A stretch of DNA of 64,000 bases, taken from assembly GCF_000027125.1 (NCBI RefSeq), contig NC_017626.1, one strand, 5' to 3'. The translations under genes were made by a program, and so were the position numbers. This DNA comes from Escherichia coli 042 (GTDB taxonomy: Bacteria > Pseudomonadota > Gammaproteobacteria > Enterobacterales > Enterobacteriaceae). The notes beneath the pieces are model-generated. The model saw nothing but the letters and a program-made list of their open reading frames with translations. It was not told where the DNA came from and ran no database searches. Positions 8,312 through 32,788 of this stretch are shown here, in pieces (the stretch's first letter is position 1; the number at the start of each line of letters is the position of its first letter).

Positions 8312-9769
8312 TTACTTCGCCGGAATTTCTTTCAGCAGTTCAGTCAGTAGTGTCCAGTAATGACCTACGCTTTCGATGTGAACTTGCTCATCCGGAGAGT
8401 GTGGACCGGTGATGGTTGGCCCGATAGAAACCATGTCCATTTCCGGATACGGTTTTTTAAACAGACCACATTCCAGGCCCGCGTGGATAATCTGGATGTT
8501 CGGCGTCTTGTTGAACAGACGCTGATAGGTTTCACGTACCAGATGCATCACCGGAGAATTAGCGTCTGGCTGCCAGCCAGGATATGCGCCTTTCGCTTCG
8601 GTTTTCGCGCCTGCCAGTTTACCCAGCGAATCCAGCATGCTCACCACGTAGTCTTTACCGCTGTCGATCAGAGAACGGATCAGGCAGTGAATTTCTACGT
8701 TATTGTCAGTCATGGTCACCACACCGACGTTCAGGGAGGTTTCGACCACACCTTTTGCCACGTCGGAGTTGCGGATCACACCGTTCGGGGTAGCGTTCAG
8801 CAGACGAATAAAGGTATCGCGAGATTTCGCAATCAGGGCAGCTTTATCGTTCGCAACAGAGTCCAGCAGCAATGCCAGATTTTTCTCTTTCTCTGCCAGC
8901 TCGTTTTTCAGGATCTCCTGATAGGTATTCACCAGAGATTTCAGTGCGTCGACTTTATCAGCTGCGACAGCAATCGTCGCAAAGGCTTCACGCGGGATGG
9001 CGTTACGCAGTGTGCCACCGTTGAAATCGATAAGGCGCAGGTCCAGCTCTTCCGCATGACCCGCCAGGAAGCGCACCAGCAGTTTGTTGGCATTACCCAG
9101 GCCAACGTGGATTTCACCGCCGGAGTGACCGCCTTTTAGACCTTTTAAGGTTAACTTGAAGGTTTCAAAACCAGCTGGAACCGCTTCACGATCTAAATGC
9201 AGGTTGGAGGTGAAGTCGATACCCCCCGCGCAACCCATGTAGATTTCACCTTCTTCTTCGGAGTCGGTGTTAATCAGAATATCAGCCTGCAACCAGTTGC
9301 TCTGTAAGCCGAACGCACCGTCCATACCGGCTTCTTCGGTCATGGTCAGCAGCACTTCCAGCGGGCCGTGAACCACGTTTTCGTCAGCCAGAACCGCCAG
9401 TGCAGAGGCCATACCAATACCGTTATCCGCACCCAGCGTGGTGCCGCGCGCTTTAACCCATTCGCCATCAATATAAGGCTGGATAGGATCTTTAGTGAAG
9501 TCATGCACGGTGTCGTTATTTTTCTGCGGCACCATATCGAGGTGGGCCTGCAAGACGACTGGTTTACGATTTTCCATACCTGCGGTAGCAGGTTTACGAA
9601 TCAGGATATTACCTACCTGATCGCGTTCGACATGGAAACCTTTCTCTTTTGCCCAACCAACAATGTATTCAGCGAGTTGCTCTTCATGATAGGACGGGTG
9701 AGGAATAGAACAGATTTTGGCAAAAATATCCCACAGCGGCTGTGGAGATAATTGAGACAGTTCAGACAC
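8312..9769 (-). CDS. pepD: Cytosol nonspecific dipeptidase (aminoacyl-histidine dipeptidase)
   Basis: 485 aa; M20-family metallopeptidase sequence, N-terminus MSELSQLSPQPLWDIFAKICSIPHPSYHEE. Confidence 0.95.
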   Translation of the reverse strand: MSELSQLSPQPLWDIFAKICSIPHPSYHEEQLAEYIVGWAKEKGFHVERDQVGNILIRKPATAGMENRKPVVLQAHLDMVPQKNNDTVHDFTKDPIQPYIDGEWVKARGTTLGADNGIGMASALAVLADENVVHGPLEVLLTMTEEAGMDGAFGLQSNWLQADILINTDSEEEGEIYMGCAGGIDFTSNLHLDREAVPAGFETFKLTLKGLKGGHSGGEIHVGLGNANKLLVRFLAGHAEELDLRLIDFNGGTLRNAIPREAFATIAVAADKVDALKSLVNTYQEILKNELAEKEKNLALLLDSVANDKAALIAKSRDTFIRLLNATPNGVIRNSDVAKGVVETSLNVGVVTMTDNNVEIHCLIRSLIDSGKDYVVSMLDSLGKLAGAKTEAKGAYPGWQPDANSPVMHLVRETYQRLFNKTPNIQIIHAGLECGLFKKPYPEMDMVSIGPTITGPHSPDEQVHIESVGHYWTLLTELLKEIPAK

Positions 9770-16147: not shown

Positions 16148-16223
16148 GCCGATATAGCTCAGTTGGTAGAGCAGCGCATTCGTAATGCGAAGGTCGTAGG
16201 TTCGACTCCTATTATCGGCACCA
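16148..16223 (+). tRNA. thrW: tRNA-Thr (anticodon CGU)
   Basis: 76-nt cloverleaf GCCGATATAGCTCAGTTGGTAGAGCAGCGCATTCGTAATGCG...GGTTCGACTCCTATTATCGGCACCA; anticodon loop TTCGTAA; encoded CCA. Confidence 0.9.
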
Positions 16224-16224
16224 T

Positions 16225-16503
16225 TTAAATCAATAAGTTACACATAATTAGTACCTTCCTTTTTTTTGACTGGGACAAATTTGGGACCGATGGGTTCAGG
16301 ACTGAGTCTATTTGCCGTGCGTGTTCGGTAAGGTGATTAGGCGCGAGGTGAGCATATCGACGAACCATTTCGATAGACTCCCAGCCTCCCATTTCTGAAA
16401 ATGCAAGAAGAGAAACACTGGACTGAACCAGCCTGCTTGCCTTTGCTATCAAAGTACCTTGAAGGCCAGATGATTTCTGGCGATATTTACAGCGCTTCCG
16501 CAA
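16225..16503 (-). pseudogene. C-terminal remnant of a tyrosine recombinase (phage-type integrase), 3' end abutting thrW
   Basis: Translation [26 protein letters not shown] carries the integrase C-terminal box with the catalytic Tyr; at most about 90 codons are available before the next gene, so the catalytic core is missing. Confidence 0.55.
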
Positions 16504-16585
16504 TGAGTTTTTCTCTGTGCCGCCAGAGGCGTTCCCCGCTTTTTCAGCACCGCAATAATGTCGGCGGAATGCCAGTCCTGTTGCA

Positions 16586-17056
16586 TCATGCGGCCACCTC
16601 GCTGATAAATTTTACGCCGTCGGCGGTACGCAGCCAGCGTGGGGCTTTGAGTCCTTCCGTGAAATACCAGACCAGCTCACACAGCAGCCCGGTCAGGGTT
16701 TGCTCCATTTTTGGTTCCGCCGGACGTTCCAGCAGAAGCTGGAGTAGTGCGAGGCAGTATTCGCACAAGGAATCAGGTTCGGAAATAAAGTGCTCTGGTG
16801 TGGCGGGAAGGGTATCCACGGTCAGGCTTTCGGTAAGATGCGGTGGGATGGGGTCGTGTAGTGTGGGTTGCAGTAGCGCAAGAGCCGCGTGAAGCCGCCC
16901 GCAGAGCGCCAGTCGTAGCGCTGGATCGTCGGTTTCAATCAGGGTTTCGGCAAAGCGGGCGCAGTAGTCAGCAAGGACAGTGAAATCCGTGGTGGCATTG
17001 AAGGGGACGGTCAATAGATCGAGTAAATCGCTGTCAGTGGTGAGGATTGTAGCCAT
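16586..17056 (-). CDS. Hypothetical acidic, Leu/Ala/Pro-rich protein (156 aa) of unknown function
   Basis: Clean GC-rich ORF with plausible composition; the overlapping plus-strand ORF is Ser/Arg/Gly-rich and looks like a shadow frame. No motif recognised. Confidence 0.45.
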
Positions 17057-17402
17057 AGGGCAACCTCCGATAAGTGGGTGTTCAAGCCACCACCGGAGAG
17101 GCTAATCTCGCGGGTGGTGGAACCGGGCAGGGTTAGCCTTACCAGCCTTATCGGACACTGGCGCGTCTTGCGACGCCCCCGCCCGGCCCACCATTGAGAT
17201 GTAACCGTGCGAACAACACAAAAAAAGACGCTGGCGCGTCATGTGTCGCCGATAAGATTTCTTCAGGAGGCTAATCCCGACGCCTGATTTTGCAGGCGCG
17301 GGAGAAAGATACTGCGATTGGTCATGAGTGGCAAGGGCTACATCATGTTTACCGACATCTCACGCAAAAATACCCTGATTATTAATAGCGAAAATCAGTT
17401 TC

Positions 17403-20400
17403 TTATTTTGGCGGTAGCTTTTTGCGGTTCTTTGCCAACTGGAATCCTTCAGGTAACGGTTTGAATTTATCGCCGCCTTTAGGCCAGCGTTTTGCCCTGC
17501 TCTGAAATGCCCTTAACGAGTCGATATCCAGCGTTGCAGCGACCACAAAGTCATTATCACCGCCCTTCACACGAGCAATATCACGCATAAAGGGTTCTTT
17601 TGCCGGGGAACGTACGCGACTATCGCCGTATTTTCGGTTATTCACTAAAATAGTATAGGCATGAATATCCAGCGCTGCTGATTCAATCAACGATGCAAAC
17701 GTATCTAGATCTTTATTCCAGCTCAATACCATTAATGCATCGAGTGCGCCCTGAAAACGGATCCTCGCTTTACTATTCTGGAGTTCAGAGCAAATCATAA
17801 CGCCAAAATTGACGCCGTGATGAATATATACCGGCTTACGTTGTTTAACATTAAGTGTCGAATCCCAAGACTTACCATAAGTTGAAAATAATGCCTCATC
17901 TTCACCTACGGCGGGTTCCAGCTTGGGTTGCCATATTTTGACACTCGCTGGATAGCCGAGTCTGTTATCTGAAAGGACAAGTACGGCCTCACTCTTCAGT
18001 TGATTATCGTCTAAGTGGCGGTATTCTGTTCCCGCAATTAGACTGATACCCGCCGAACTCAAACGATCAGCAATACTGTTAACCCAGCGTAACGGGATTG
18101 AAAGCTCAGGGAATAAAACATAATCAGGTTTAGGAGATAGTTTCAATGTTGCATTAACCAGTTCAGAAATCCGCTGGTACCTTGAACGGGACAAGTTAGA
18201 TTTATTGCAGGCCATTTTAGCCCAGTCGTCCTCCTCTGTTTTAATGCTGGTTAGCGCAACGACAACTTTATGTTTCCTGTCTGTGCCAATATGAATGAAT
18301 TTCTTAGGCCGAGCTTTTTTTGTCGCTTCATCTGAGTCCTGCTCCGATGCTAGCAACGTCGGTTTGATCCATACTCCGCGTAATGCTTGAGTATATTTTG
18401 CCCAAATGGTGGACGGTCTCTCATCTGGTTTTTTGTCGGATGTGGAGGGTAATCCAACACATTCGGGGGCCAGTTCTGATATTTCAGCGGGTGTTAAAGG
18501 ACGTGTAGGGAAAATGTAAGGTAGGTAACTTTCGTTCTTACGATTTCCTTTAGCCACTTTTTCCAGTCGGGTATTCTTGGTTGATTTCAAAAATAGCTTA
18601 ATAACGTCAATATCAATAAGCGATGAGTCGCTCATTAATTTCAGTATTTTAACTTCTTTTTTACTATCACGCTGATTAACAAGTTTTTCTGCCGACTGAC
18701 TCTTTACGATCTGTTTATAAGGTTCCTTTGCTAAATCAGCTCGAGCTACCAATGGCGCTTTTAAATAAAAATCTGCTGAATCAAAGCGAAGATCCAGTAA
18801 ATCCTTTAGATTCGTCAGACTTTGTGAAATATGATTAAAAAATGTATCCGCAAGGCACTCTTCTTTCTTTGAACGTTTATCAAGAAATAATCTGTCAGGA
18901 CTGTAATATCGTGTCGCTGCATCAACAAATAGCCAGCTTAATGTGCCTTTTATACAGCGCCAAAGATCATTTACTGCTCGAGTTTTGCAACCATTTATAT
19001 TCACTTCCTTACCTGAAGTAATCACCGATGCCAACAGGTTGATGGATTCGTAAGCTTTAAGTACAATTTTTTCCGCGTGCTGCCATTCATTCATACTGAT
19101 AGCAAAGCCAAGCAGCCTTGGCAGATAACTAAAATGTGCAAATAGATTATCAGCCCTAAGAATATGGTTGTAGGCAAACTGATAAAACTCTTCCCGCTGT
19201 TCTTTCCATTCACTTGGAGGCAGATCTCGTGCCAGTGTTTCAACGTAGCGTAATTGCAGTGACCAGCCCAAACGACGAATGGTTAATCCATCCGCACGGC
19301 GCAGAGTATCGGCATTTTCACCTACACTACCGGCAGCGGAAAGGACTTTAGCTGCGGTGGAGTGTTCCAGTTGATCCGGTGAAGGCATCAAGCGGTGTTC
19401 ACTAGAAAGCTCGTAGATCTCCTTTTCGATACTGTCGAGCAGGTCTATTCCAGCCCTCCCTTGAAGCACGAAAAGTTTTTGCTTATCGGATTGTAACTGG
19501 ATGGTGGTCTTACCCTGGAAATGCTCGCCCTGCTGTATTTGCCATATTTGTTTTTGCTCGTTTTTCAAATAAACGCAATCATTGCCAAGCCTATCTTGCA
19601 GCAATAACATAAATTCGTGATTATTAGTAATTGTCCCTGTATCGCGTATTACAAGGAACATATCATCGACATAACGACCGTAGTGAATTGGTGATAGTTT
19701 TTCAATGACTAATTTATCCCAATGGTGTAGCAATATATTTGAAATGATCCGACTGGCTGTTAATCCAATGACCAGACCACCATTAATAACAGGTGTTTTG
19801 TACGCTATTTTCTTTCCAAATGCCGCTGCGCCGTCAGACCAGTGCTTTAAGAATACTGCTAACTGTGCAGTAAACGCTTTTTCATCCTCAGTCAGTTTTA
19901 TGTTTAGTGTGTTATAGAGATCATCAGAGGTTATAGCCAGTGGATCAATAAAATGATAGTAACTTTTTAAATCCAGTGAGGCGGCGATAATGTCACGATC
20001 TTTTTCCAACTCGTCACGTATAGCTTTTAAGCCATCACCACGCCATTTTTGGTAGGGCTGGAAGTAGGGGCTAAAAGAACCCACGGCACTGATATGGAAT
20101 GGATTATCCTGCTCATTGCTAAATAATTCATCATTACGAATACGCTTTAGCCGCGCGCCATAGCAACAGTTATCTAAGCTGGCATCAAATTTATGCCCGA
20201 CCATGTTAATCCATAGTGCAGAGATAATGTGACTATCAACCGGGAAGTCACCAATAATACGAAACTCTGGTATCAGATCAAAATTATTAAATAAATGGTC
20301 GGCTGCTCGTTTAGGATTAGAAAAGTGGACGTGTCCATTTTGGGATTCATGTTTTTTCTTTGTGGTTAATTTTTTCGGTAACAAACGAAATTTGCCAATC

Positions 20401-20612
20401 AACTTCTTATTGCTACTGAATCCATCTTCGCTCTGCAAAAGATCTAAGAGTTTTTGCAGGTTTTCAAGTAATTCCTGCTCATACTCGGCAAATTTGATAG
20501 CAACAGGAAATGTATTCTCAAAGAAGCTATCGGCTTTTGCTTTCCGGTAAGCGACCAGAAGGTCTTCAATCGTCAGATCATCCCAGCCAGTGAAAATTGC
20601 CTGATATGTCAT
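17403..20612 (-). CDS. Reverse transcriptase fused to a C-terminal nitrilase (carbon-nitrogen hydrolase) domain; candidate anti-phage RT (DRT type 1 / UG1-like)
   Basis: 1069 aa. RT motifs: LDLKSYYHFID (motif A-like, aa 213-223), GGLVIGLTASRIISNIL (motif B-like), HYGRYVDDMFLVI (motif C YVDD, aa 314-317, nt 19662-19673). C-terminal nitrilase triad candidates: FPE (E836), VKIWQPK (K892), GVMICSE (C941). AT-rich relative to flanks. Confidence 0.85.
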   Translation of the reverse strand: MTYQAIFTGWDDLTIEDLLVAYRKAKADSFFENTFPVAIKFAEYEQELLENLQKLLDLLQSEDGFSSNKKLIGKFRLLPKKLTTKKKHESQNGHVHFSNPKRAADHLFNNFDLIPEFRIIGDFPVDSHIISALWINMVGHKFDASLDNCCYGARLKRIRNDELFSNEQDNPFHISAVGSFSPYFQPYQKWRGDGLKAIRDELEKDRDIIAASLDLKSYYHFIDPLAITSDDLYNTLNIKLTEDEKAFTAQLAVFLKHWSDGAAAFGKKIAYKTPVINGGLVIGLTASRIISNILLHHWDKLVIEKLSPIHYGRYVDDMFLVIRDTGTITNNHEFMLLLQDRLGNDCVYLKNEQKQIWQIQQGEHFQGKTTIQLQSDKQKLFVLQGRAGIDLLDSIEKEIYELSSEHRLMPSPDQLEHSTAAKVLSAAGSVGENADTLRRADGLTIRRLGWSLQLRYVETLARDLPPSEWKEQREEFYQFAYNHILRADNLFAHFSYLPRLLGFAISMNEWQHAEKIVLKAYESINLLASVITSGKEVNINGCKTRAVNDLWRCIKGTLSWLFVDAATRYYSPDRLFLDKRSKKEECLADTFFNHISQSLTNLKDLLDLRFDSADFYLKAPLVARADLAKEPYKQIVKSQSAEKLVNQRDSKKEVKILKLMSDSSLIDIDVIKLFLKSTKNTRLEKVAKGNRKNESYLPYIFPTRPLTPAEISELAPECVGLPSTSDKKPDERPSTIWAKYTQALRGVWIKPTLLASEQDSDEATKKARPKKFIHIGTDRKHKVVVALTSIKTEEDDWAKMACNKSNLSRSRYQRISELVNATLKLSPKPDYVLFPELSIPLRWVNSIADRLSSAGISLIAGTEYRHLDDNQLKSEAVLVLSDNRLGYPASVKIWQPKLEPAVGEDEALFSTYGKSWDSTLNVKQRKPVYIHHGVNFGVMICSELQNSKARIRFQGALDALMVLSWNKDLDTFASLIESAALDIHAYTILVNNRKYGDSRVRSPAKEPFMRDIARVKGGDNDFVVAATLDIDSLRAFQSRAKRWPKGGDKFKPLPEGFQLAKNRKKLPPK

Positions 20613-20906
20613 GCGTTATCGTCCTTAGATTACAGTCTGTACAGAATTAGCCAGCCGTTTCATGCCCGAAGGGGGGCTCTTGACACCAGTAATCCATCAG
20701 TGAGGCTGGCAATAATTTTGATTTGTATCCATGTTACACGCTCCCCGCAACCAGTCCGAGCATATATTTGTCACATTTTTCCCGAAAGTGATTAAGTTTG
20801 AATTTTTTGTTTAATGTCGATTTTTAGTCGACAAAATGAGGAATAAGTAAACTATTTCTTGCTGTGGCGTATCCCTGAATCTACACTGGTTTAAATATTT
20901 GTACTA

Positions 20907-32540: not shown

Positions 32541-32788
32541 TGCATTGAATAATAAAAATGGCGCAAATGCAGCGCCATTTTTATAGGTTAAAAACATTGC
32601 TTTTTACTTTCTGAAGCAGATAGCCAGTGAGTACATCGCGCTACTTCAGGATGCTGTAGATCCGGAGAACACTATAGAGGAAGATGCATTGTTGCTGGCA
32701 GATGGAAGAAGTTTCGGGTTTTGTTATCCCTGAAAAACGAAGCCCCGCGGTTATAGCTGGCGGGGCAGTGCAATTAATTATTGCATAT

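What the first reader, a model, noticed from the sequence alone, without database searches (positions are those of the whole stretch)
17057..17402. GC-rich, repeat-containing non-coding spacer immediately 3' of the RT-nitrilase gene: candidate structured RNA
The 346 bp between the RT stop (17403) and the start of the 156-aa gene (17056) contains no ORF, is far more GC-rich than the RT gene, and holds a perfect 8-bp inverted repeat (CCACCACC at 17089-17096 and GGTGGTGG at 17113-17120), two copies of GAGGCTAATC (17098 and 17267) and two of CTGGCGCGTC (17158 and 17231), plus several GACGCC motifs. Many defence RT systems (retrons, DRT2, DRT9) rely on a structured non-coding RNA next to the RT gene. 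Whether this region is such an RNA, the leader of the downstream gene, or an unrelated remnant cannot be decided from sequence. A weak AT-rich hairpin plus T-tract at 17366-17398 could terminate the RT transcript before it.
Basis: partly seen in the sequence, partly recalled or inferred. Interest (0 to 1): 0.55.

Follow-up and report, generated by a model that had tools for sequence, protein, structure and literature searches.

The report
Phage-type antisense RNA switch, not RT RNA
The GC-rich spacer after the reverse-transcriptase gene is a well-known phage-type antisense RNA switch (IsrK/SeqA leader plus C4/CI RNA) that controls the gene downstream of it; the reverse transcriptase is swappable cargo that happens to sit next to it.

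Summary
They are the working parts of a known RNA module read on the minus strand. It starts with a sigma-70-like promoter (17334-17306). Next comes an IsrK/SeqA-like leader with an intrinsic terminator (17299-17221; Rfam RF01394, 68.8 bits, threshold 50). Then comes a C4/CI-type antisense RNA (17198-17110; RF01695, 71.1 bits, threshold 45). Two C4 boxes, a' and b', are complementary to one target pair in the leader (b1, a1) and to a second pair downstream (b2, a2). Box a2 overlaps the Shine-Dalgarno sequence of the 156-aa gene.

Across 14 related loci with about 12 different box combinations, both sets of contacts covary (90-95% paired, against 28-49% when the partner columns are slid).

The module travels with the 156-aa gene, not with the RT:
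- 1063 of 5426 complete E. coli genomes carry it, and only 260 carry the RT.
- Homology to RT-less islands starts at 17335, one base upstream of the -35 hexamer.
- Of 23 RT-homologue loci with enough downstream sequence, only a syntenic Serratia island has the module.
- Other islands hold a type I R-M system, a DUF4747 gene pair or T6SS cargo in the RT's place.

Verdict: an ordinary, already described RNA family; low interest. An RT template or partner RNA is not supported.

The parts
17306..17334 (-). Sigma-70-like promoter, TTGCCA (17334-17329), 17-nt spacer, TATCTT (17311-17306). It places the transcription start near 17299.
   Evidence: the only promoter-like site in 16900-17600, against 0.3 expected. 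The TTG of the -35 and the A and T at positions 2 and 6 of the -10 are invariant or at least 90% conserved across 14 loci. Homology to RT-less islands begins at 17335.
17221..17299 (-). IsrK/SeqA-like leader RNA. It comprises hairpin 1; hairpin 2, which carries target box b1 (17278-17266, box core in the hairpin loop); single-stranded target box a1 (17256-17249); and an intrinsic terminator, GACGC-GCCA-GCGUC plus U7 (17240-17220).
   Evidence: Rfam RF01394 isrK, 68.8 bits (gathering score 50), full length. RF03163 c4-a1b1, 43.8 bits at 17312-17260, just under its 46.7 threshold. Terminator found. The MFE fold reproduces the hairpins.
17110..17198 (-). C4/CI-type antisense RNA: a 17-bp closing stem and two inner hairpins. 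Antisense box a' (UCCGAUAAG, 17155-17147) lies in the loop of hairpin 2. Box b' (AGGCUAACCC, 17139-17130) starts in the single-stranded joint, and its last four bases (CCCU side) form the start of the 3' strand of the closing stem.
   Evidence: Rfam RF01695, 71.1 bits (gathering score 45), full length 1-87. In 11 loci, 97% of cells are paired against 36-47% when slid, with 13 pairs showing compensatory changes. Fold z = -4.74.
17087..17120 (-). Hairpin carrying target box b2 (GAUUAGCCUC, 17107-17098), partly in its loop and partly in its 3' arm. Its 5' arm, CCACCACC, overlaps the 3' strand of the C4 closing stem (shared CCACCA), so the two structures exclude each other.
   Evidence: inverted repeat I1. 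b'-b2 pairing covaries in 14 loci.
17054..17074 (-). Target box a2 (CUUAUCGGA, 17074-17066), overlapping the Shine-Dalgarno sequence GGAGG (17068-17064), 7 nt upstream of the ATG (17056-17054) of the 156-aa gene.
   Evidence: Sequence read. The 9-nt perfect complement to a' is (I2). a'-a2 pairs are 93.5% paired with 6 of 9 pairs compensatory.
16586..17056 (-). First gene controlled by the leader: a 156-aa protein of unknown function, predicted to be a helical bundle. Members of this family are preceded by the isrK+C4 module in every relative examined.
   Evidence: 646 homologues in Enterobacterales, all named 'hypothetical'. No hit in Pfam, PHROGs, NCBIfam or PADLOC. AlphaFold2 pLDDT 78.7; no significant fold match. 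isrK+C4 upstream in Dickeya, Klebsiella and E. coli relatives.
16450..16589 (-). Truncated second gene of the operon, a Ner-like HTH_35 regulator. Only about 24 N-terminal residues align with intact homologues. It is followed by a C-terminal integrase fragment (16225-16443) and tRNA-Thr (16148-16220, + strand).
   Evidence: Intact homologues of 73-84 aa carry PF13693.
17336..17402 (-). AT-rich 3' tail of the RT-nitrilase cassette. It is not part of the RNA module.
   Evidence: GC 0.373. No significant structure. Not conserved in RT-less islands. Weakly shared with RT homologues L006 and L007.

Best explanation
The spacer core (17057-17335, minus strand) is the regulatory leader of the downstream operon: the 156-aa gene followed by a Ner-like HTH gene. 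It belongs to the C4/CI antisense immunity class known from phage P1/P7 (c4-icd-ant), satellite P4 (seqA-CI-seqC) and Salmonella Gifsy-1 (IsrK-STnc1160-orf45-anrP).

Proposed working:
1. A constitutive sigma-70 promoter starts transcription near 17299.
2. Most transcripts stop at the intrinsic terminator. This gives a ~79-nt IsrK/SeqA-like RNA that displays boxes b1 and a1.
3. Read-through transcripts carry the C4-like element, which by analogy is processed to a stable RNA of about 85-90 nt.
4. C4 boxes a' and b' pair with b2 and a2 on the read-through mRNA. Because a2 overlaps the Shine-Dalgarno sequence, this blocks translation of the 156-aa gene and, through polarity, of the genes behind it.
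5. The short leader RNA carries the same boxes (b1, a1). It competes for C4, so the ratio of short RNA to C4 sets the switch.

What is shown here: family membership, the RNA structure, both sets of intermolecular contacts with covariation, the overlap with the ribosome-binding site, promoter conservation, and linkage to the downstream gene rather than to the RT. What is inferred from P1, P4 and Gifsy-1: the processing, the direction of regulation and the decoy role.

The RT-nitrilase (UG5-large) is cargo inserted in a slot between AbiEi/AbiEii and this promoter.
For: - Rfam hits above gathering score: C4 71.1/45 and isrK 68.8/50. P4's own CI and seqA regions hit the same two models, 74.9 and 60.8 bits.
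- The fold of 17299-17050 reproduces the family structures, z = -4.74.
- Intramolecular pairs are 97% paired with 13 compensatory pairs.
- a'-a2 and b'-b2: 90.4% paired against 28-43% when slid, 12 of 18 pairs compensatory, 0 of 500 shuffles as high.
- a'-a1 and b'-b1: 94.7% against 31-49%, 11 of 19 compensatory.
- Duplex energy (a'-a2 plus b'-b2) averages -23.8 kcal/mol for cognate pairs and -9.8 for non-cognate pairs.
- a2 overlaps GGAGG, 7 nt before the ATG.
- Promoter found; its key positions are invariant in 14 loci.
- Linkage: the module is in 1063 E. coli genomes and the RT in 260; the homology breakpoint is at 17335.
- The slot holds hsdRMS in JJ1886, a DUF4747 pair in Klebsiella and Rhs/PAAR cargo elsewhere.
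- All 8 loci scanned around distant homologues of the 156-aa gene have isrK and C4 ending about 55 nt upstream of the gene.
- PMC4825925 states that IsrK is a structural homologue of P4 SeqA, and that a processed RNA, STnc1160, lies downstream.
Against: - There are no expression data for this locus. Processing of C4, termination efficiency and the sign of regulation are all inferred.
- c4-a1b1 scores just below its Rfam threshold, 43.8 against 46.7.
- The controlled gene is not an antirepressor or a replication gene as in the model systems, and its function is unknown.
- The operon is truncated here: the HTH gene is cut and only integrase fragments remain. The switch may therefore no longer control anything important.
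- The 14 loci are related by descent, so shuffle statistics overstate significance. The slid-partner controls and the multiple independent box swaps lessen this concern.
Confidence: 0.88

Rival explanations
1. The spacer encodes the template or scaffold ncRNA of the adjacent RT-nitrilase, as msr-msd does in retrons or the ncRNAs do in DRT2, DRT3 and DRT9.
For: It lies directly next to the RT on the same strand. It is strongly structured. An 81%-identical RT in Serratia is also followed by isrK and C4.
Against: - The Serratia locus is the same syntenic island, with AbiEi/Eii upstream and a 153-aa gene plus HTH gene downstream, so it is not independent evidence.
- 22 of 23 RT-homologue loci with at least 400 nt downstream lack C4 and isrK, and their downstream flanks share nothing in common.
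- About 800 E. coli genomes have the module without the RT.
- The homology breakpoint at 17335 separates the RT tail from the module.
- Every pairing the RNA makes is accounted for by targets in its own leader and mRNA.
- Published RNA-seq and deletion data for a UG5-large system found no ncRNA.
Confidence: 0.03
2. The conserved element is a protein-coding gene, the 'ash family protein' (PF10554) annotated by PGAP, or an orf45-like small ORF as in Gifsy-1.
For: PGAP annotates a 57-aa Ash protein over 17102-17275 in identical genomes. Its translation hits PF10554 at E = 1.2e-4 and PHROG 'transcriptional regulator' families. In Gifsy-1, mutating orf45's start codons or inserting a stop codon lowered anrP translation, and the methods describe a SPA-tagged orf45 western (PMC4825925).
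Against: - There is no canonical start for the 57-aa frame.
- The frame from the conserved AUG is cut by stops after 8 codons in Serratia, 15 in L127, 28 in JNE21 and 30 here, yet runs on into the main gene in others.
- Substitutions are compensatory for RNA pairing.
- The Pfam match covers exactly the C4 RNA.
Confidence: 0.05
3. The module is a genuine C4/IsrK leader by descent but is a functionless fossil in this genome, left in a decayed island whose regulated operon has been deleted.
For: The HTH_35 gene is truncated after about 24 conserved residues. Only a C-terminal integrase fragment remains next to tRNA-Thr. The Integrase_1 gene and the EFASI RNA of intact relatives are missing.
Against: The promoter, terminator, C4 fold and all six boxes are intact and perfectly complementary. 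The 156-aa ORF is intact. The JJ1886-type allele, about 14% diverged in DNA, keeps the same truncated arrangement with cognate boxes. That argues for retention over time.
Confidence: 0.2
4. The parts are the same but the output follows P4. C4 pairing with the upstream and downstream boxes causes premature transcription termination of the operon, rather than, or in addition to, a block of translation.
For: P4 CI works this way (summarised in PMC4825925). An intrinsic terminator lies between the upstream boxes and C4. P4's CI and seqA hit the same Rfam models.
Against: - a2 overlaps the Shine-Dalgarno sequence, as in P1 icd.
- The isrK-to-C4 spacing is 22 nt, as in lambdoid phages (24 nt), and not 107 nt as in P4.
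- Three lineages (JNE21, 19AR0254, L175) have lost the terminator hairpin but keep all the boxes.
Confidence: 0.25

Closest known systems
Gifsy-1 prophage isrK - STnc1160/orf45 - anrP locus (Salmonella; Hershko-Shalev et al. 2016, PMC4825925)
   Same: An IsrK RNA with its own Rho-independent terminator lies directly upstream (22-24 nt) of a C4-like element. Read-through forms the mRNA. The middle of IsrK is complementary to the C4-like region. The ribosome-binding region is controlled by these pairings. Both Rfam models hit at full length.
   Different: - The downstream gene here is a 156-aa protein of unknown function followed by a Ner-like HTH gene, not a Rha/antirepressor.
- The host element is a decayed tRNA-Thr island with defence cargo, not a lambdoid prophage.
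- The orf45-like frame stops 45 nt before the main ATG, so direct translational coupling is unlikely.
Phage P1/P7 immI region: c4 antisense RNA with a1/b1, a2/b2 targets, icd-ant (Rfam RF01695, RF03163; Weinberg et al. 2010, PMC2864571)
   Same: The RNA fold is the same. Two antisense boxes have one target pair upstream and one downstream, and the downstream target overlaps the ribosome-binding site of the first ORF. Different alleles have different box sequences, which is the basis of heteroimmunity. P1-like phage-plasmids match the spacer at about 69% just upstream of icd.
   Different: There is no icd or ant gene. The upstream target region carries its own terminator and scores better as isrK than as c4-a1b1. 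The element is not in a phage.
Satellite P4 immunity: PLE leader with seqA - CI RNA (seqB) - seqC
   Same: P4's CI and seqA regions match the same two Rfam models, 74.9 and 60.8 bits. Intact relatives of this island backbone carry a tyrosine integrase with an arm-type DNA-binding domain, as annotated for P4 Int. 'Ash family protein' is the label PGAP puts on this region.
   Different: - The seqA-to-CI gap is 107 nt in P4 and 22 nt here.
- P4 acts by transcription termination upstream of its replication genes.
- The island has no alpha, epsilon, sid, delta or psu genes, and the 156-aa protein is unrelated to P4 ORF151.
- It is therefore not a P4-like satellite.
ncRNAs of defence reverse transcriptases (retron msr-msd; DRT2, DRT3, DRT9 ncRNAs)
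   Same: It is a structured RNA gene adjacent to a defence RT on the same strand.
   Different: It is not conserved with RT homologues. It is conserved without the RT. It lies 3' of the RT. Its base-pairing partners are in its own leader. UG5-large is reported to have no ncRNA.

Membership tests
C4 antisense RNA / P4 CI RNA (Rfam RF01695, clan CL00128) | An RNA of about 87 nt with a long closing stem enclosing two hairpins, scoring above the curated threshold | tested here: met
   71.1 bits against a gathering score of 45, model positions 1-87. 97% of cells paired and 13 compensatory pairs in 11 loci. The MFE fold agrees.
C4 antisense RNA / P4 CI RNA (Rfam RF01695, clan CL00128) | Two exposed antisense boxes (a', b') complementary to a downstream target pair (a2/b2, or seqC) at the start of the regulated operon | tested here: met
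   a' 17155-17147 pairs with a2 17074-17066 (9 of 9 bp). b' 17139-17130 pairs with b2 17107-17098. Pairing is 90.4% across 14 loci with 12 of 18 pairs compensatory. a2 overlaps the Shine-Dalgarno sequence.
C4 antisense RNA / P4 CI RNA (Rfam RF01695, clan CL00128) | A second copy of the targets upstream of the RNA (a1/b1, or seqA) | tested here: met
   b1 lies at 17278-17266 and a1 at 17256-17249. Pairing is 94.7% with 11 of 19 pairs compensatory. isrK scores 68.8 against 50. c4-a1b1 scores 43.8 against 46.7, just below threshold.
C4 antisense RNA / P4 CI RNA (Rfam RF01695, clan CL00128) | The RNA is cut out of the leader transcript (RNase P and 3' trimming) and acts in trans as the immunity factor | not testable with these tools
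   This is known for P1 and P4 from my own knowledge of the literature, and is summarised for P4 in PMC4825925. There are no RNA data for this locus.
C4 antisense RNA / P4 CI RNA (Rfam RF01695, clan CL00128) | Controls an antirepressor (P1 ant, Gifsy-1 anrP) or replication operon (P4 alpha) of a phage or satellite | tested here: not met
   The downstream gene is a 156-aa protein with no family or fold match, followed by a truncated HTH_35 gene. There are no phage or satellite genes in the island. In lambdoid phages the same module precedes a Rha/antirepressor-type gene.
isrK / P4 SeqA leader RNA (Rfam RF01394) | An RNA of about 77 nt starting at the promoter, with two 5' hairpins and a Rho-independent terminator, above the curated threshold | tested here: met
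   68.8 bits against 50, model positions 1-77. A promoter lies 7 nt upstream and the terminator has a U7 tail.
P4-like satellite (hotspot carrying defence genes) | Core genes psu, delta, sid, alpha (primase), epsilon and a P4-type integrase | tested here: not met
   The island between tRNA-Thr and ykgR' contains only an integrase fragment, an HTH fragment, the 156-aa gene, the RT and AbiEi/Eii. Intact relatives of this backbone have the 153-aa gene, an HTH_35 gene, an Integrase_1 gene and a tyrosine integrase with an arm-type DNA-binding domain, but no P4 morphogenesis or replication genes.
RT-associated ncRNA (retron msr-msd, DRT2/DRT3/DRT9 ncRNA) | The ncRNA is conserved next to homologues of the RT across taxa | tested here: not met
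   Only 1 of 23 RT-homologue loci with at least 400 nt downstream has it, and that one is the syntenic Serratia island. Downstream flanks show no shared element. The region upstream of the RT shows no structure, z = +0.95.
RT-associated ncRNA (retron msr-msd, DRT2/DRT3/DRT9 ncRNA) | The RNA is absent when the RT is absent | tested here: not met
   1063 E. coli genomes carry the module and only 260 carry the RT.
RT-associated ncRNA (retron msr-msd, DRT2/DRT3/DRT9 ncRNA) | The RNA is bound and reverse-transcribed by the RT | not testable with these tools
   This needs RT pull-down and cDNA sequencing.

The most novel reading that the evidence does not exclude
The IsrK/C4 switch is the conserved control element of a widespread family of tRNA-integrated islands in Enterobacterales that are neither phages nor satellites. 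The backbone is: switch, 153-156-aa protein, Ner-like HTH, EFASI RNA, Integrase_1 gene, a tyrosine integrase with an arm-type DNA-binding domain, tRNA.

The slot immediately upstream of the switch promoter takes swappable defence or T6SS cargo: RT-nitrilase, type I R-M, a DUF4747 pair, or Rhs/PAAR genes. The a and b boxes recombine independently, giving at least 12 specificity combinations among 14 loci. The switch may govern island excision or transfer, or respond to incoming elements that carry matching boxes.

A much less likely reading is that the RT has co-opted this RNA.
Probability: 0.2. Interest if true: 0.4.

Novelty: already known. Interest (0 to 1): 0.18.

Why it matters
The main value is as a correction. 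A structured RNA next to a defence reverse transcriptase is easily taken for its template RNA. Here it is the neighbouring island's own phage-type antisense switch, and the RT is cargo dropped one base upstream of that switch's promoter.

The result also has practical uses:
- It gives a clean cassette boundary (17335) for cloning the RT.
- It shows that the 'ash family protein' (PF10554) annotation at this locus is a translation of the C4 RNA gene.
- It documents that C4/IsrK modules with many box specificities sit at the edge of defence-cargo slots in islands of Enterobacterales.

None of this is surprising to a specialist in phage immunity RNAs.

Tried and rejected
- A scan of viral contigs for the invariant 14-mer CCTGCAAAATCAGG returned 120 loci, but only one (L127) held a real module. 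The rest were chance matches.
- The function of the 156-aa protein could not be found. PHROGs, NCBIfam, Pfam and PADLOC gave nothing. The AlphaFold2 model (pLDDT 78.7) gave only generic four-helix-bundle matches in Foldseek against PDB and BFVD, none better than E = 0.04. There is no similarity to P4 ORF151.
- I looked for a sequenced phage with the same a'/b' combination, which would allow cross-immunity. Only chance-level hits turned up.
- I looked for an alternative RT-linked RNA. The 294 nt upstream of the RT have no promoter or terminator matches and no structure, z = +0.95. The flanks of RT homologues share no element beyond close relatives.
- The idea that the island is a P4-like satellite hotspot was considered and rejected for lack of any P4 core gene.
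- The 24-nt direct repeat (C4 hairpin 1 against the IsrK terminator) was considered as an antiterminator pairing. I dropped this because the similarity is absent in the phage and Serratia versions.
- A literature search for the primary P4 CI papers found only the summary in PMC4825925.
Full report
**Observation.** The window was read on the minus strand, which is the sense strand of the RT (17403-20612) and of the 156-aa gene (16586-17056). GATTAGCCTC, the minus-strand form of GAGGCTAATC, occurs only twice in the 64-kb window, both times in the spacer, against 0.05 expected by chance. A third repeat was missed: CCGATAAG at 17067 and 17249, with its reverse complement at 17147-17155.

The spacer has two parts. 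The 67 nt after the RT stop (17336-17402) are AT-rich like the RT (GC 0.373 against 0.419). The remaining 279 nt (17057-17335) match the downstream gene (0.577 against 0.569). The proposed hairpin plus T-tract at 17366-17398 folds no better than shuffled sequence (z = -0.09), and the terminator scan does not report it.

**Identity.** An Rfam scan of the whole window puts two curated families in the spacer, both full length and above their gathering scores. isrK (RF01394) lies at 17299-17221 with 68.8 bits against 50. C4 antisense RNA (RF01695) lies at 17198-17110 with 71.1 bits against 45. c4-a1b1 (RF03163) lies at 17312-17260 with 43.8 bits against 46.7.

The same two models hit the immunity region of satellite P4: C4 at 8507-8420, under the old 'cI gene product' annotation (8168-8584), and isrK at 8692-8615. 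They also hit lambdoid and Stx phages upstream of genes annotated as antirepressor or regulatory protein (Rha family in related records). P1-like phage-plasmids match the spacer at about 69% just upstream of icd. PMC4825925 states that IsrK is a structural homologue of P4 SeqA and that a processed RNA, STnc1160, lies downstream of it. The C4 and c4-a1b1 motifs were catalogued by Weinberg et al. 2010 (PMC2864571).

**Anatomy (minus strand).**
- Promoter: the only sigma-70-like site in 16900-17600 is TTGCCA-17-TATCTT at 17334-17306. It places the start about 7 nt downstream, at the first base of the isrK match (17299).
- IsrK-like RNA: two hairpins, then a single-stranded stretch, then the terminator GACGC-GCCA-GCGUC-U7 (17240-17220).
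- C4-like RNA: it begins 22 nt after the leader ends and forms the family fold.
- Downstream hairpin (17120-17087): it shares CCACCA with the C4 closing stem.
- Gene start: the Shine-Dalgarno sequence GGAGG (17068-17064) and the ATG (17056).

An unconstrained fold of 17299-17050 reproduces the Rfam structures at -113 kcal/mol, z = -4.74.

**The repeats are the antisense boxes and their targets.** C4 box a' (UCCGAUAAG, 17155-17147, hairpin-2 loop) is complementary to a1 (17256-17249) and to a2 (17074-17066). Box b' (AGGCUAACCC, 17139-17130) is complementary to b1 (17278-17266, core in the loop of IsrK hairpin 2) and to b2 (17107-17098). Box a2 overlaps the first three bases of the Shine-Dalgarno sequence.

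I aligned the module from 14 loci:
- this window;
- Serratia;
- five other E. coli islands;
- Dickeya;
- Klebsiella;
- four phages;
- one IMG/VR contig.

The boxes differ between loci but stay mutually complementary within each locus:

| Contacts | Cells paired | Paired when partner columns slid | Pairs with changes on both sides | Shuffles as high |
|---|---|---|---|---|
| a'-a2 and b'-b2 | 90.4% | 28-43% | 12 of 18 | 0 of 500 |
| a'-a1 and b'-b1 | 94.7% | 31-49% | 11 of 19 | 0 of 500 |
| Intramolecular stems (11 loci) | 97% | 36-47% | 13 of 44 | 0 of 500 |

Predicted duplex energy (a'-a2 plus b'-b2) averages -23.8 kcal/mol for cognate pairs and -9.8 for non-cognate pairs. The a and b boxes assort independently. 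For example, JJ1886 shares b but not a with the window, and Dickeya has Serratia's a box with the b box also found in L127 and Klebsiella. The loci are related by descent, so the shuffle counts are not probabilities. The slid controls and the many independent box swaps carry the argument.

**Whose RNA is it?** In complete E. coli genomes the spacer core plus the 156-aa gene occurs in 1063 of 5426 genomes. The RT occurs in 260, all at least 95% identical (260 of 261 records at 99% or more), which points to a single recent acquisition. In RT-less genomes the homology starts at query position 866, which is window 17335, one base upstream of the -35 hexamer.

At the same thrW locus, strain JJ1886 has AbiEii-AbiEi-hsdR-hsdM-hsdS where this window has AbiEii-AbiEi-RT. 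The same leader and 156-aa gene follow. Klebsiella has AbiEii-AbiEi-DUF4747-185-aa there. Islands at tRNA-Asn have Rhs/PAAR/DUF2169 cargo. Dickeya has a type I R-M system. All eight loci scanned around 60-73% identical homologues of the 156-aa protein carry isrK and C4 ending about 55 nt before the gene.

Conversely, I retrieved 35 loci encoding RT homologues (48-95% identity) from about 100,000 species genomes. Of these, 23 have at least 400 nt downstream, and only one, Serratia marcescens L006, has the module. That locus is the same syntenic island, with AbiEii/Ei upstream and a 153-aa gene plus an HTH-sized ORF downstream, but it carries different a and b boxes. Downstream flanks of RT homologues share nothing beyond close relatives, and L007 shares only the first ~90 nt after the stop with L006. 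The 294 nt upstream of the RT show no structure or promoter match. A 2025 preprint on a UG5-large RT-nitrilase, the family this RT belongs to (PADLOC RT_UG5-nitrilase, 1034 bits), found no flanking ncRNA by RNA-seq and no effect of an upstream deletion.

**Mechanism.** The best-supported reading is the P1/Gifsy-1 type of control. The leader promoter makes mainly the short IsrK-like RNA. Read-through makes C4 and the mRNA. C4 boxes pair with b2 and a2 and occlude the ribosome-binding site of the 156-aa gene. The short RNA, which carries b1 and a1, competes for C4, or opens the cis-inhibited structure as shown for Gifsy-1.

Shown here: the family fold, both sets of contacts under selection, the overlap with the ribosome-binding site, promoter conservation (the TTG of the -35 and positions 2 and 6 of the -10 are invariant or nearly so), and linkage to the downstream gene. 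Inferred: RNA processing, the direction of control and the decoy role.

A P4-type termination output cannot be excluded. However, the 22-nt isrK-to-C4 spacing matches the lambdoid arrangement (24 nt) and not P4's 107 nt. Three lineages have also lost the terminator hairpin while keeping all the boxes.

**What it controls.** The 156-aa protein belongs to a family of at least 646 proteins in Enterobacterales, all annotated as hypothetical. It has no Pfam, PHROG, NCBIfam or PADLOC match. Its model is a helical bundle with no informative structural neighbour. In intact relatives it is followed by a 73-84-aa HTH_35 (Ner-like) gene, an EFASI RNA, a 294-aa Integrase_1 gene, a tyrosine integrase with an arm-type DNA-binding domain, and the tRNA. 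In this window the backbone is truncated: the HTH gene keeps only about 24 conserved residues, and a C-terminal integrase fragment abuts tRNA-Thr. The switch may therefore be partly vestigial here, although every RNA element and the first ORF are intact.

**The 'Ash protein'.** PGAP annotates a 57-aa 'ash family protein' over 17102-17275, and its translation hits PF10554 weakly. The frame has no canonical start. From the conserved AUG it is interrupted after 8, 15, 28 or 30 codons in four lineages (five of the 11 loci), but it is open into the main gene in others, which is why gene callers often extend the downstream protein. Conservation is therefore at the RNA level. At this locus the protein annotation is a reading of the C4 gene. 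A short orf45-like peptide, as reported for Gifsy-1, cannot be excluded.

**Verdict.** It is wrong in linking the RNA to the RT. The element is a member of RNA families that were described decades ago (P1 C4, P4 CI) and is found by a routine Rfam scan. Novelty: already known. Interest: low. The only mildly new aspects are the host element, a non-phage island backbone with a cargo slot next to the switch, and the unknown protein it controls.

Noticed in passing
L004 11608-11735; L005 11975-12103; L172 4800-4929; L175 4889-5017 (related loci): An EFASI RNA (RF02957, 99-119 bits) lies just upstream of a 294-aa Integrase_1/Phage_int_SAM_2 gene in every intact relative of this island backbone. It is missing from the window because the backbone is truncated after the 156-aa gene.
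   Followed up: partly
window 17102-17275 (-): The Pfam PF10554 'Ash protein family' and PGAP 'ash family protein' annotation at this locus is a conceptual translation of the C4 RNA gene. The frame is broken by stop codons in several lineages, and many database proteins of the 156-aa family carry it as a spurious N-terminal extension.
   Followed up: yes
window 17335-20906 and L002 2967-8933, L172 1354-2912: The slot between the divergent AbiEi/AbiEii pair and the C4 leader promoter holds different cargo in different strains: UG5 RT-nitrilase, type I hsdRMS, or a DUF4747 gene plus a 185-aa gene with no PADLOC match. This suggests a recombination hotspot for defence cargo with a sharp right-hand boundary at 17335.
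   Followed up: partly
window 17403-20612 (-): The RT is a UG5-large RT-nitrilase (PADLOC, 1034 bits) with no adjacent transmembrane-protein gene. The literature reports a TM partner as necessary for the E. coli E101 UG5-large system (PMC9226505). In strain MEI003 the otherwise identical gene is annotated as two CDSs.
   Followed up: no
window 17154-17177 and 17227-17250: A 24-nt direct repeat (83%) links C4 hairpin 1 to the IsrK terminator. The two hairpins have the same arms in swapped order. The repeat is present in the E. coli and Klebsiella island alleles but not in the phage or Serratia versions. Its significance is unknown.
   Followed up: partly
window 32546-32746 (+): A full-length match to the IS009 RNA family (RF02111, 190.7 bits).
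   Followed up: no
window 16148-16503: tRNA-Thr (thrW) is followed 4 nt later by the C-terminal ~60 codons of a tyrosine integrase oriented toward the tRNA. No copy of the tRNA 3' end is repeated elsewhere in the window, so the far att site of the island is gone or lies outside the window.
   Followed up: partly
L168 3982-4073 (E. coli 2014C-3050): Only the promoter and the IsrK-like 5' part (93% identical over 55 nt) is present, with no C4. It sits next to a CP4-44-like island (type I R-M, YeeP-like GTPase, Ag43). This short match is common among E. coli genomes.
   Followed up: no
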